Assembly: GCA_037305845.1 (NCBI GenBank)
Contig: CP147778.1
Coordinates: 2,272,001-2,336,000 of the forward strand
Reading direction: 5' to 3'
Origin: Candidatus Freyarchaeum deiterrae
GTDB taxonomy: Archaea; Asgardarchaeota; Jordiarchaeia; Jordiarchaeales; Jordiarchaeaceae
DNA: 64,000 nucleotides
Numbering within the stretch: the stretch's first letter is position 1; each line of letters begins with the position of its first letter. Made by a program: the position numbers and the translations under genes. The notes under the pieces were generated by a model. It saw nothing but the letters and a program-made list of their open reading frames with translations, ran no database searches and had not been told where the DNA came from. Positions 6,820 through 15,491 of this stretch are shown here, in pieces.

Positions 6820-7129
6820 TTGCCGCAAAAACGTAAAAGTCGTGGAAGAGCCAAAGGAAGCGCTGGAAAGAAATCACTCGTCCAATGCTCCGGGTGTGGG
6901 GCCATGGTGCCTCGCGATGTCAATTTGCTCAATTGAGCAAGTACGCGATAAGGCTAAGCGTGTGACCCGATACACCACATTGGTTGATCCAATGATCGGT
7001 CGAGAATTAAGACAGCAGGGAGCATACATTCCAAGAACTAGAGAAATCAAGGTATACTGCATCAACTGTGCTGTTCACAGAAAATTGACTCGGGTAAGAC
7101 CAAAGGAAGATAGAAGAGACAGAAGATAA
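6820..7129 (+). CDS. rps26e: 30S ribosomal protein S26e, two exons (6820-6918 and 6950-7129), 92 aa after splicing
   Basis: TTG at 6820 gives MPQKRKSRGRAKGSAGKKSLVQCSGCGAMVPRD. The downstream frame gives KAKRVTRY...YCINCAVHRKLTRVRPKEDRR. Removing 31 nt restores the conserved PRDKA motif. Confidence 0.93.
6919..6949 (+). other. Putative 31-nt bulge-helix-bulge mRNA intron in rps26e
   Basis: GCCT-CGCG-[ATG]-stem-loop-CGCG-[ATA]-AGGC. Cutting after the 2nd nt of each bulge gives CCT CGC GAT AAG GCT. Confidence 0.88.
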
Positions 7130-11131: not shown

Positions 11132-12403
11132 GTGATTATGTTGAAAGATTTACAGATCCCTTACGGCAAAAAAGAAATCAGATTTAACCTACCAAACAAC
11201 TGGAATCTGCTAGGCGTTCTCTCACCAAAGATAACCAACAAGCAACTTGATCCTTACAAGGCGGTACTGAAAGCGGTGAGAAATCCAATAGGAACCGAAA
11301 GCCTGTATGATATAGCACACAGAAAAAGGAATGCAGTAATCCTCTCAGATGATAAAGCACGCCCTACCCCCTCAAACCTTATTATTCCTCCATTACTGGA
11401 CGAGTTAAATCGGGCTGGTATTCCCGATGGTAAAATTACTATTATCATAGGAAGGGGATTGCACGAATCTCTGAATGAAAAAGAACTTGAAAAGAAGCTA
11501 GGTGAGAATGTCTTAGAACGGGTTGCTGTCATTGATCATGAACCAGATAAAGATTTAATTAACGTTGGAAAAACTCCTCAAAACGTGCAGGTATTCATTA
11601 ATAAAAACGTTGTTGAGGCGGACCTAAAGATAGGTATAGGCAGCCTTACACCTCACGAATTATCTGGATTCACAGGAGGCGCAGGAATCGTTGTACCTGG
11701 CGTGGCTGGAAGGCGAACCATTAATCAAAACCATTCTCTTGTTAAAAGGTTCAAGGCAGAATTCGGAAAAATTGAAGGAAATCTCATACGCAAAGATATG
11801 GAAGACGCAGCCAAGTTGCTTGGATTAGACTTTTTGGTAAATGCTACTCTGGACGTTAACGATCAGATAGTAGATATATTTGCAGGAGATGTGGTTAAGG
11901 CTTCCCATGAAGCGGTTGAAAGTGCTAAGAACATTTACGGTGTGCACATCGATAAAAAGGCAGACGTAGTGATAGCCAGTTCTCATCCAAAAGATGATAC
12001 TTTCGGCAAATCAATGAAAGCCATTTTCGCTTCTTCACTGGCAGTCAAACCAGACGGCGTTATAATACATGTAGCGCCCTGCTGGGACGGGCTGTCGCAC
12101 AGTGAAATTTTCGAGAAAATGTTACTAGACAATCCTGGACTAGAAACATTATTCAAGATATTGGATAGAGGACAACTTCCTGGAGAAAGCTGTGTACTCT
12201 ACCTGTTTGCTTTAGTTAAAAATAAACTTAGAATCATAGTAGTTACCGACGGAATAGAAAAAGAGGTCGTAGAAAAAATGGGTTTAGAATACGCTGAAAA
12301 CATAGAAACCGCCTTAAAAAACACTGGAAAAGAAAAAGCGGATTGTACCGTGCTGCCCTGGGGCGCTGTCTCATTACCTATTCTAAATAATTCGAGTGAG
12401 TAA
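11132..12403 (+). CDS. Nickel-dependent lactate racemase (LarA) family protein
   Basis: SDDKARPTP, GRGLH and PHELSGFTGG motifs. Confidence 0.85.
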   Translation: MIMLKDLQIPYGKKEIRFNLPNNWNLLGVLSPKITNKQLDPYKAVLKAVRNPIGTESLYDIAHRKRNAVILSDDKARPTPSNLIIPPLLDELNRAGIPDGKITIIIGRGLHESLNEKELEKKLGENVLERVAVIDHEPDKDLINVGKTPQNVQVFINKNVVEADLKIGIGSLTPHELSGFTGGAGIVVPGVAGRRTINQNHSLVKRFKAEFGKIEGNLIRKDMEDAAKLLGLDFLVNATLDVNDQIVDIFAGDVVKASHEAVESAKNIYGVHIDKKADVVIASSHPKDDTFGKSMKAIFASSLAVKPDGVIIHVAPCWDGLSHSEIFEKMLLDNPGLETLFKILDRGQLPGESCVLYLFALVKNKLRIIVVTDGIEKEVVEKMGLEYAENIETALKNTGKEKADCTVLPWGAVSLPILNNSSE

Positions 12404-12598: not shown

Positions 12599-13926
12599 TT
12601 GCGCTTTTTTTCGGACTTGCACATACATAGCAAGTATAGTAGGGCCACCAGTGATAAAATGGATATTGAGAATTTGATAAAGCATGCCAAGGTTAAGGGA
12701 CTAAACCTGCTAAGTTCTGGAGACCTATCTCATCCAAAATGGTTATCCGAGTTGAAAAACAAACTGATAGAGATCGAGGATTCGGGATTTTTCAGGGCTG
12801 AGGGCGAAAATGATGTTTTCTTTGTTCTTTGCACCGAAGTGTCAACTGTCTTTAGACATGAAGGAACTTCAAAGAAGATTCATCATCTTTTGTTTGCTCC
12901 TAATTTCGAAGTAGCTGATAAAATGAACGAATTTTTAGCGAAATTCGGGAATCTGAAAGCAGACGGTAGACCAATGTTGAATATTACCCCCGCAGAACTC
13001 GTTGAGAATCTTATAAATATTGATGAAAGAATATTAATCGTTCCTGCACATTTATGGACCAGTTGGTTTGGTGCATTAGGTGAAAATGGTTTCGACAGTT
13101 TAGAAGACTGTTACGAAGATCAGCTAAAGCACATCTACTCTGTGGAAACAGGTTTATCCTCTGACCCGGCTATGAACTGGAGACTGAGCAAATTGGACAA
13201 ATACGTTTTAATGAGTAACAGCGACGCTCACAGCCCATGGGATTGGAGGCTTGGTAGGGAAGCAAACGTTTACGAACTAAAATCTCCATCCTACCGAGAA
13301 TTAACCGAGGCTATAAAAACAAAAGACAGGGAAAAAATTCTTATGACCATCGAAGTTGACCCCGCCTATGGAAACTAATTCGAAGTGAGTCCGAGTTAGC
13401 CATAAAATATCACTTCGATGGTCACCGCGCAGATAAACATCAAAGCGGTACGGACGTATACATGTCTCCAAAAGAGGCTATTAAAATAAGTAACATTTGT
13501 CCAATCTGTAGAAAGAAAATGACTATCGGAGTGCTACACAGAGTAGAAGAATTAGCTGATCGAGATGAAAATTATTTACCCAAAAATTATGTACCCTTCA
13601 AAAGATTAATTCCTTTGACAGAACTCATTGCGGCTGCTATGAGGATTGATGACTTGTACTCTAAGCAGATTTGGGAGATGTACTACCGACTTGTGAATTC
13701 TTTCGGTAACGAGTACAATATTTTAATTAATGTTCCCAAACCCGATATTGAGGCGGTGGTGGATCAGAAAATTGCTGATTTAATTATCAATAACCGAGAA
13801 GGAAGACTAAAGATTAGACCAGGTTTCGATGGGGTGTATGGAAAAGTTGTTTTAGACGAAAAAGAAGCTAAAGGTAAAGGCTTTAAACAGCTGGAGCAGA
13901 AAAGTCTGGATGGATATTTTAAATAA
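12599..13926 (+). CDS. EndoQ/TIGR00375-family PHP-domain endonuclease, two exons (12599-13373 and 13406-13926), 431 aa after splicing
   Basis: DLHIHSKYSRATS, ETGLSSD and NSDAHS motifs. The joined sequence reads EVDPAYGKYHFDGHR...CPICRKKMTIGVLHRVEELADR...PGFDGVYG. Confidence 0.9.
13374..13405 (+). other. Putative 32-nt bulge-helix-bulge mRNA intron in the EndoQ-family gene
   Basis: ATGG-[AAA]-CTAATTCG-loop-CGAGTTAG-CCAT-[AAA]. Canonical cuts give TAT GGA AAA TAT CAC (YGKYH). A 13-bp perfect exon-exon stem pairs 13344-13356 with 13412-13424. Confidence 0.88.
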
Positions 13927-14795: not shown

Positions 14796-15491
14796 CTATT
14801 CCTCCGAAGCAAACAGCTTCTTTAATCTACCAAGCTCTGTCATCATCGCATTCCTAAGATCCGTAATAGAGCCCGCATCCTGTTGAACCGCAGCTCCTAT
14901 CGCAGCCGAAGCGGCTACACCAGGTGCACCCATACTCGGCGGTCCACCTACTGCTGGTGTTCTACCCGCTACCGGCGGCATACCTGCTGGTGGTCTGCCT
15001 CCCGCTGATGGCGGTCCACCTATACTTGGCGGTGCGCCTGCTGATGGCGGCATACCTGCTGGTGGTCTGCCTCCCGCTGATGGCGGTGCGCCTGCTGATG
15101 GCGGCATACCTGCTGGTGGTCTGCCTCCCGCTGATGGGGGCATACCTGCCGCAGTTGCTGGTTGAGTGCCGGTTTTGGTAGAGAACATACCAAATACATC
15201 ATCTGGTGCGGTTCTACTACTTAATGATTCTAGTGGGACGGATGATGATGACGATACTATTGTTTCCTGCGTTCCCATTGCTGTAGATTGAGGCATAGCA
15301 AGTTCGGAAGCTCCGAGGTCGACCTCCATTCCTTTCGCCGCTTTTGCGAGGTCTTTTTGTAGACTTTCTACCGATTTAGAGTAGGCTTCTTGTGCTTTCT
15401 TTAGGGATTCGATATACTTATTAGAAAAACTGAGCAGGGAGGAACAAGCCTTTTGAACGAACCGTAATAGTTTCTCTTCTTTCTTGGGCAA
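14796..15491 (-). CDS. Hypothetical protein: coiled coil, Pro/Gly-rich repeats and C-terminal helix with LKK
   Basis: 231-aa ORF with a GAGG SD-like site. Repeats AGMPPS/AGGRPP/AGAPPS. Confidence 0.75.
   Translation of the reverse strand: MPKKEEKLLRFVQKACSSLLSFSNKYIESLKKAQEAYSKSVESLQKDLAKAAKGMEVDLGASELAMPQSTAMGTQETIVSSSSSVPLESLSSRTAPDDVFGMFSTKTGTQPATAAGMPPSAGGRPPAGMPPSAGAPPSAGGRPPAGMPPSAGAPPSIGGPPSAGGRPPAGMPPVAGRTPAVGGPPSMGAPGVAASAAIGAAVQQDAGSITDLRNAMMTELGRLKKLFASEE
14974..15137. repeat. Coding tandem repeat with an 18-bp basic unit
   Basis: Exact 38-mer GGCGGCATACCTGCTGGTGGTCTGCCTCCCGCTGATGG at 14974, 15046 and 15100. Confidence 0.9.

What the first reader, a model, noticed from the sequence alone, without database searches (positions are those of the whole stretch)
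13344..13424. BHB intron in an EndoQ/TIGR00375 nuclease, clamped by a 13-bp exon-exon stem
Seen: central helix ATGG(13368-71)/CCAT(13400-03), bulges AAA/AAA, and 8-bp inner stem CTAATTCG/CGAGTTAG (one G-U). Removing 13374-13405 restores DPAYG|KYHFDGHR and fuses the two ORF-track fragments into 431 aa. The flanking coding sequences TGACCATCGAAGT (13344-56) and ACTTCGATGGTCA (13412-24) are perfectly complementary. Pairing directly next to the 3' bulge is only 1 bp, so this is a relaxed BHB. Inference: exon codons were selected to hold the splice structure, and the EndA must accept relaxed motifs. Intron retention would give a 259-aa protein lacking the C-terminal zinc-binding region.
Basis: partly seen in the sequence, partly recalled or inferred. 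Interest (0 to 1): 0.9.

Follow-up and report, generated by a model that had tools for sequence, protein, structure and literature searches.

The report
tRNA-type intron splitting Asgard endoQ gene
The only endonuclease Q (DNA-repair) gene of this Asgard archaeon is broken by a 32-base insert shaped like a tRNA intron that all its relatives keep at the same codon, so the mRNA almost certainly has to be spliced by the tRNA-splicing enzymes, which the papers I could search show inside a coding sequence for only one other archaeal gene (cbf5).

Summary
Observation confirmed base by base. Removing 13374-13405 at the standard bulge-helix-bulge (BHB) cut sites gives a 431-aa EndoQ and rebuilds Lys259 (= Lys243 of Pyrococcus EndoQ, needed for activity). 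All 11 genomes of the order, plus 12 further contigs, carry an insert at this codon (24-32 nt, all three frames); the intron side of the helices covaries with the exon side; both halves are under purifying selection (dN/dS 0.07 and 0.12); the genome has one endoQ, a two-subunit EndA with the broad-specificity loop, and RtcB. The 13-bp exon stem is real but partly forced: MTIEV/HFDGH fix 9 of 13 pairs. The remaining synonymous positions are nearly frozen in this family (strong constraint) but free in the sister family, which keeps the intron, so the stem is an accessory, not a requirement. Another Asgard family has an independent BHB intron at a different site of endoQ. No spliced transcript was found; splicing is inferred (about 0.9). 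It works like the crenarchaeal cbf5 intron. The scan had already reported this intron and the second one on other DNA; the test of the exon clamp is what this report adds.

The parts
12599..13373 (+). endoQ exon 1: PHP nuclease domain, codons 1-258 plus the first base of Lys259
   Evidence: TIGR00375 3-236; PfuEndoQ 5-242, E 5e-38
13344..13356 (+). 5' arm of the distal exon-exon stem (codons M-T-I-E-V)
   Evidence: exact complement of 13412-24; synonymous constraint in this family only
13367..13367 (+). outer BHB pair, T13367 with A13407
   Evidence: U-A in 16 of 17, U-G in 1
13368..13371 (+). central helix, exon strand (ATGG)
   Evidence: U-A / C-G compensatory change in 8 versus 9 sequences
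13372..13374 (+). 5' bulge AAA; predicted cut between 13373 and 13374
   Evidence: BHB rule (cut between 2nd and 3rd bulge base, PMC2738675); restores frame
13374..13405 (+). 32-nt BHB intron; shifts the frame and holds an in-frame TAA (13376-78)
   Evidence: same site in L001-L011, L034-L043, L060, L061
13375..13399 (+). intron hairpin: stem 13375-82 / 13392-99, 9-nt loop
   Evidence: 5 of 6 scored pairs show changes on both sides
13400..13403 (+). central helix, intron strand (CCAT)
   Evidence: covaries with the Tyr257 codon: CCAT with TAT, CCGT with TAC
13404..13406 (+). 3' bulge AAA; predicted cut between 13405 and 13406
   Evidence: last intron base varies to G in L061 while the exon side is kept
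13406..13926 (+). endoQ exon 2: rest of Lys259, zinc-binding domain and C-terminal helical domain
   Evidence: TIGR00375 250-374; PfuEndoQ 259-390; dN/dS about 0.12
13412..13424 (+). 3' arm of the distal exon-exon stem (codons H-F-D-G-H)

Best explanation
endoQ carries a protein-spliced, tRNA-type intron. In the pre-mRNA the exon bases ATGG pair with the intron bases CCAT between two 3-nt bulges; the (alpha-beta)2 splicing endonuclease EndA cuts after the second base of each bulge, and RtcB joins the exons, rebuilding the Lys259 codon (A+AA) and the frame, so that a 431-aa EndoQ (a nuclease that nicks DNA at deaminated bases and abasic sites) is made. Unspliced mRNA stops two codons into the intron. 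The intron was gained once, in the ancestor of the order (class Jordarchaeia/Freyarchaeia). The flanking MTIEV and HFDGH codons are complementary by nature; in this family the free third positions were then fixed so that a 13-bp stem closes the region and makes up for the one-pair outer helix, playing the part the tRNA body plays for a tRNA intron. Shown: structure, conservation, covariation, selection on both halves, presence of the enzymes. Inferred: the splicing itself, the enzymes' action on this RNA, and the stem's role in efficiency.
For: Same-site insert in 11 of 11 genomes of the order and 12 more contigs; absent from the other Asgard families examined. Lengths 24, 28, 29, 32 (all three frames), each removable by the BHB rule to a 426-437-aa frame. 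Central-helix pair U-A/C-G switches on both sides; 93% of cells paired against 21-49% for slid controls. dN/dS 0.07 (5') and 0.12 (3') in this family, 0.05 and 0.10 in the sister family. Single endoQ copy in a closed genome. Lys259 aligns to Pfu Lys243, whose K243A mutant is strongly impaired. Two EndA paralogues, one with Tyr/His/Lys and the K-P-K loop, and RtcB. Intron-bearing proteins form one clade, 100/99. Clamp codons: diversity 0.51 against 2.82; computed probability of the central helix 0.99 native against a median 0.55 when the clamp codons are redrawn synonymously. Precedent: spliced cbf5 cDNAs (PMC2738675); tRNAs of Freyarchaeia are 92-95% intron-containing (PMC11291895).
Against: No spliced junction in JGI metagenome contigs and no full-length protein above 61% identity in the protein collection; these sources are mostly DNA, so this is weak. 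In the Jordarchaeum-like genus the productive register has a G-A mismatch in the central helix, while a register slid by one base is a perfect BHB whose cuts give a frameshift. The exon stem is missing in the sister family. Related genomes inflate the covariation and permutation statistics.
Confidence: 0.9

Rival explanations
1. Split gene: the PHP domain (259 aa) and the zinc/helical part are translated as two polypeptides that assemble, and the hairpin serves translational coupling.
For: Databases annotate the halves as two genes. In relatives with a 28-nt insert and a TAT codon, the ATG of the central helix opens the downstream frame (P0122, P0123, P0125).
Against: That ATG is out of frame here (32 nt) and is ACG in many relatives; in this genome the first ATG/GTG/TTG of the downstream frame is Met278, which would drop the conserved KYHFDGHR. 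It does not explain the exon-intron covariation.
Confidence: 0.04
2. Ribosomal recoding (frameshift, hop or read-through) crosses the insert without splicing.
For: A-rich junctions (GGA AAC / AAA ATA) and a hairpin after the 5' junction; one relative has an in-frame 24-nt insert with a single TAG (L010).
Against: Insert lengths fall in all three frames (0, +1, +2), so no single recoding event fits; a hop would not need the 4-bp helix with two 3-nt bulges or its covariation.
Confidence: 0.03
3. Pseudogene or assembly error.
For: A stop and a frameshift inside a conserved motif.
Against: Kept at one site across two families at 60-65% protein identity, from independent samples and assemblies; dN/dS about 0.1 after the break; only copy of the gene.
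Confidence: 0.01
4. The intron is spliced, but the 13-bp stem is only a by-product of the protein sequence and shared descent, or is kept for another reason (mRNA stability, a protein-binding site). This rivals the clamp part only.
For: 9 of 13 pairs fixed by the amino acids; no change on both sides in any stem pair; the stem is absent in the sister family; reduced synonymous change extends upstream to about codon 235, beyond the stem.
Against: ACC, CAC, TTC, GAT, GGT are invariant although synonymous sites are near saturation between some of these genomes (pS up to 0.77); Thr and Gly codons are never invariant elsewhere in the gene (0 of 8, 0 of 17); the only changes seen (ATC/ATT, GAA/GAG) keep pairing through G-U.
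Confidence: 0.25

Closest known systems
cbf5 pre-mRNA intron of Desulfurococcales and Sulfolobales (Watanabe 2002; Yoshinari 2006; Yokobori 2009, PMC2738675)
   Same: Short ORF-less intron inside a coding sequence; BHB with cuts between the 2nd and 3rd bulge bases; relaxed motif; two-subunit EndA; intron placed between the first and second base of a functionally important codon (catalytic Asp there, the Lys243-equivalent here); one gain in a lineage ancestor.
   Different: Different gene (DNA-repair nuclease) and lineage (Asgard); splicing is shown by cDNA for cbf5 and only inferred here; a distal exon-exon stem under synonymous constraint; a second, independent intron site in the same gene in another Asgard family.
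Non-canonical BHB tRNA introns of Freyarchaeia and Atabeyarchaeia (PMC11291895; bioRxiv 10.64898/2026.10.13.758758)
   Same: Same motif, size range, lineage and enzymes; repeated gains.
   Different: Those papers describe tRNA genes only; my searches of their text found no mRNA introns.
HVO_1309 5'-UTR BHB intron of Haloferax volcanii (PMC7714728)
   Same: EndA-processed mRNA, confirmed in vitro.
   Different: Lies in the 5' UTR and does not break the reading frame; homodimeric EndA.
Endonuclease Q of Pyrococcus furiosus (PDB 5ZB8, 7K30-33; PMC5961232); TIGR00375
   Same: PHP + zinc-binding + helical domains; metal ligands and lesion pocket residues conserved.
   Different: First two cysteines of the C4 zinc site are not cysteines here (His265 at the Cys249 position); gene is intron-split.

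Membership tests
Archaeal BHB (EndA/RtcB-spliced) intron | 4-bp central helix between two 3-nt bulges on opposite strands | tested here: met
Archaeal BHB (EndA/RtcB-spliced) intron | Flanking helices: intron-side helix and exon-side helix | tested here: met
   8-bp intron helix; exon-side helix only 1 bp here (2 bp in many relatives), so a relaxed form
Archaeal BHB (EndA/RtcB-spliced) intron | Cutting after the second base of each bulge restores the functional sequence | tested here: met
   431-aa frame, YGKYH motif as in intron-less orthologues; in the Jordarchaeum-like genus only the imperfect register does so
Archaeal BHB (EndA/RtcB-spliced) intron | Structure conserved while sequence varies | tested here: met
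   6 pairs with changes on both sides; 93% paired against 21-49% for slid controls; related sequences inflate this
Archaeal BHB (EndA/RtcB-spliced) intron | Host encodes EndA (two-subunit with specificity loop for relaxed motifs) and RtcB | tested here: met
   loop lysine aligns to Aeropyrum K44 (PMC12397907)
Archaeal BHB (EndA/RtcB-spliced) intron | Spliced RNA or circular intron observed | tested here: inconclusive
   0 matches to the spliced junction in JGI contigs; no full-length close protein; collections are mostly DNA and may omit this genome
Archaeal BHB (EndA/RtcB-spliced) intron | Cleavage by EndA in vitro | not testable with these tools
   needs an experiment
Endonuclease Q (TIGR00375 / PfuEndoQ) | PHP metal ligands H8, H10, E76, H84, H139, D193 (and H195) | tested here: met
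   H8, H10, E80, H95, H151, D209, H211 by alignment to 5ZB8
Endonuclease Q (TIGR00375 / PfuEndoQ) | Lesion pocket and DNA-binding residues T142, W144, E167, G169, N191, R201, K243, Y244 | tested here: met
   T154, W156, E183, G185, N207, R217, K259, Y260; K259 exists only after splicing
Endonuclease Q (TIGR00375 / PfuEndoQ) | C4 zinc site C249, C252, C268, C271 | tested here: inconclusive
   C290/C293 kept; His265 stands at the C249 position, as in most of 103 full-length homologues (GH motif); the second ligand was not identified
Endonuclease Q (TIGR00375 / PfuEndoQ) | Score over the curated TIGR00375 cut-off (326.6 bits) | tested here: not met
   111 + 80 bits for the halves; none of 400 Asgard genomes reaches the cut-off either, so EndoQ-like by residues and domains, outside NCBI's equivalog
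Endonuclease Q (TIGR00375 / PfuEndoQ) | Nicks DNA 5' of deaminated bases and abasic sites | not testable with these tools
   needs an assay

The most novel reading that the evidence does not exclude
In these Asgard archaea tRNA-type splicing has become a routine step of mRNA expression, with exons evolving tRNA-body-like clamps through their synonymous sites, and endoQ is a controlled target: gained twice at different conserved motifs, with splicing efficiency (clamp strength here, competing registers in Jordarchaeum) setting how much repair enzyme is made, in the manner of IRE1/RtcB splicing of XBP1/HAC1 in eukaryotes.
Probability: 0.15. Interest if true: 0.9.

Novelty: new member of a known kind. 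Interest (0 to 1): 0.62.

Why it matters
Published work that I could search documents EndA splicing inside an archaeal coding sequence only for cbf5 (PMC2738675, PMC7714728); searches for such introns in Asgard archaea returned nothing. A conserved, order-wide case in the closest prokaryotic relatives of eukaryotes shows that protein-catalysed mRNA splicing can arise and be kept for long periods in ordinary genes, and that coding sequence can be bent at synonymous sites to serve it. It also means that public annotations of this class split endoQ into two wrong genes. The prediction is exact and cheap to test with existing metatranscriptomes of wetland soil (PMC11291895) or with purified EndA.

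Tried and rejected
(1) Spliced-junction scans of JGI metagenome contigs, narrow and broad pattern: 0 matches. (2) Protein searches with each half for a full-length or junction-spanning close relative: none; all relatives above 64% identity are split. (3) A blind, homology-free scan of the genome for BHB motifs that join reading frames: it recovers this intron, but the total is no higher than with decoy geometries (182 against 141-195; strict version 20 against 12-27; first attempt timed out), so I give no genome-wide count. (4) Other Asgard endoQ genes with low scores were checked for further breaks: intact, except one TAA point change without an insert on a short contig. (5) Sigma-70 promoter scan: at chance level and not suited to archaea. 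(6) Other deletion lengths (29, 35 nt) can restore a frame, but only the 32-nt class gives YGKYH with a BHB at both ends. (7) The PNAS 2011 review on archaeal introns was not held. (8) No structure was predicted: the spliced protein cannot be handed to that tool, and the solved Pfu structure answers the question.

Full report
Source. The window lies in a closed 3,576,204-base genome. The nearest relatives of the protein are named Candidatus Freyarchaeota / Freyrarchaeum / Jordarchaeia in public records, so this is an Asgard archaeon of class Jordarchaeia (Freyarchaeia). A complete Freyarchaeia genome from wetland soil, with introns in 92-95% of tRNA genes, is described in PMC11291895; that it is this very genome is my inference, not checked.

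The observation. All coordinates are right. The central helix ATGG 13368-71 pairs with CCAT 13400-03; each is followed by AAA; the intron stem 13375-82 / 13392-99 has eight pairs, one G-U; on the exon side only T13367-A13407 pairs; 13344-56 and 13412-24 are exact complements. Cutting after the second base of each bulge, the rule given for archaeal introns (PMC2738675), removes 13374-13405 and joins the 259-aa ORF to the downstream frame as one 431-aa protein reading DPAYGKYHFDGHR. Both halves match TIGR00375 in order (positions 3-236 and 250-374) and Pyrococcus EndoQ (residues 5-242 and 259-390). It is the only copy in the genome. The region folds far better than its shuffles (z -5.06), though the computed optimum extends the central helix by one pair instead of forming the 3' bulge.

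Is it an intron? All 11 genomes of the order have the open frame cut short at 258-303 codons, whereas the other Asgard families listed have 409-481. In those 11, and in 12 more contigs fetched by protein identity, an insert sits between GGA-A and AA-TAY. Its length is 24, 28, 29 or 32 nt, that is all three frames; the 24-nt one holds a stop. Its loop varies freely, but the geometry stays: when the Tyr codon is TAT the intron strand is CCAT, when it is TAC the strand is CCGT or ACGT (U-A in 8, C-G in 9 of 17), and five of six intron-stem pairs change on both sides; 93% of cells pair against 21-49% for slid controls (related sequences inflate such figures). Two natural variants fit the predicted boundaries: one keeps Lys as AAG with the outer pair turned to U-G (L039), and one changes the last intron base to G, leaving the exon side intact (L061). 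After removal every relative gives a 426-437-aa frame. The intron-bearing proteins form one well-supported clade among intron-less homologues (100/99), consistent with one gain in the ancestor of the order.

The machinery. The genome encodes two EndA paralogues and RtcB. The 211-aa one has the catalytic Tyr, His and Lys and is closest to the Aeropyrum pernix catalytic subunit (E 8e-43), including the loop whose K-P-K aligns with Aeropyrum K44-P45-R46; that loop is tied to cleavage of relaxed motifs (PMC12397907). The 198-aa one lacks the His and is the structural subunit. A preprint finds this two-subunit form in most Asgard genomes.

What the intron interrupts. The junction falls between the first and second base of Lys259, which aligns with Pfu Lys243; the K243A mutant has strongly reduced activity, and residues 239-303 form the zinc-binding domain (PMC5961232). 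An unspliced message gives a PHP domain alone. The metal ligands and lesion-pocket residues are all kept. The zinc site differs (His at the Cys249 position) and the TIGR00375 cut-off is not reached, as in all 400 Asgard genomes searched, so I call the protein EndoQ-like by residues and domains; its activity is untested.

The 13-bp exon stem. MTIEV and HFDGH are complementary by nature of their codons: six pairs are Watson-Crick whatever the codons, three more always pair, and only four depend on synonymous choice. Random synonymous codons give 11 of 13 paired on average; a fully paired stem has P 0.047 and a perfect one P 0.0016. Intron-less orthologues with the same residues already pair in part. 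Still, selection is visible in this family: ACC, CAC, TTC, GAT and GGT are invariant across genomes whose synonymous sites differ by up to 77%, Thr and Gly codons are never invariant elsewhere in the gene, and the changes that occur keep pairing through G-U. Summed diversity of the seven codons is 0.51 against 2.82 expected (none of 100,000 draws as low; overstated by relatedness and by choosing the codons after the fact), and the eight most constrained of 394 windows all overlap codons 235-264. Redrawing these codons lowers the computed probability of the central helix from 0.99 to a median of 0.55 in this genome, less so in some relatives. In the sister family the stem is broken (Tyr for Phe, free third positions, diversity 4.7 against 3.17) although the intron is kept. 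So the stem is a later, family-specific aid to folding, not part of the splice signal. No stem pair shows a change on both sides, which the protein constraint makes hard; its role is inferred, about 0.75.

Context. Another Asgard family has a different BHB intron (41-54 nt) in endoQ, after GTGD, and lacks this one: two independent gains in one gene. In this window rps26e is split by a 31-nt insert of like design. My blind genome-wide scan recovered the endoQ intron but did not rise above decoy geometries, so I give no count. Two gains in one gene may only reflect a high rate of intron gain in these lineages; I have no evidence of regulation.

What is missing. No spliced junction turned up in metagenome contigs or predicted proteins; these are mostly DNA, so the absence is weak. 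One oddity remains: in the Jordarchaeum-like genus the productive register has a G-A mismatch, and a register slid by one base is a perfect BHB whose cuts would break the frame.

Comparison and verdict. It works like, and by every feature I could test belongs with, the archaeal BHB introns; the closest case is the cbf5 intron, also placed inside the codon of a key residue and cut by a two-subunit EndA (PMC2738675). A 2020 paper counts cbf5 and a 5'-UTR intron of Haloferax as the only mRNA cases (PMC7714728), and my searches found no paper on such introns in Asgard archaea; subscription journals are mostly not covered. Earlier notes of this scan report this same intron in other genomes of the class, the second endoQ intron, and many similar introns in this genome; they are leads, not evidence, and I tested the endoQ ones independently. 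Verdict: real intron, splicing inferred at about 0.9; new member of a known kind; interest 0.62.

Noticed in passing
window 6919-6949 (+): rps26e is split by a 31-nt BHB-like insert (CGCG/CGCG helix, bulges ATG and ATA, weak intron-side pairing); removal gives a 92-aa protein with VPRD-KAK, and both halves hit Pfam S26e.
   Followed up: partly
Earlier notes report it too.
   Followed up: yes
L008-L011, L042, L061 junctions: In the Jordarchaeum-like genus the in-frame register has a G-A mismatch, and a register slid by one base is a perfect BHB that would give a frameshifted product; unexplained.
   Followed up: partly
window about 13300-13360: Reduced synonymous change in this family extends upstream of the stem to about codon 235 (KTK, AAA ACA AAA); no pairing partner identified.
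   Followed up: no
G000 C1: 1472160-1472189 (-), 1125569-1125598 (+), 2244134-2244165 (+), 1876899-1876927 (-), 1589354-1589381 (-): Blind-scan candidates with A-rich bulges whose removal gives protein-like motifs (gatE-like CTYE, alba-like IGKKPTMSY, ISAPHM and others; names from memory and earlier notes); the scan as a whole is not above its decoys.
   Followed up: no
G000 whole genome: ARAGORN finds only 17 tRNA genes in a closed 3.58-Mb genome, as expected if most tRNAs carry several non-canonical introns (PMC11291895).
   Followed up: no
window 11132-12403 (+): LarA-family nickel-pincer racemase gene directly upstream of endoQ, kept in several relatives; below the curated cut-offs of all subfamilies.
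   Followed up: no
window 14796-15491 (-): 231-aa protein with a repeated Pro/Gly/Ala-rich tract (GMPPSAGGRPPA-like units) and no NCBIfam match.
   Followed up: no
L002 codon 264: One relative has GGT to TGT (Gly to Cys) in HFDGH, the only break of the exon stem in this family; could be an assembly error.
   Followed up: no
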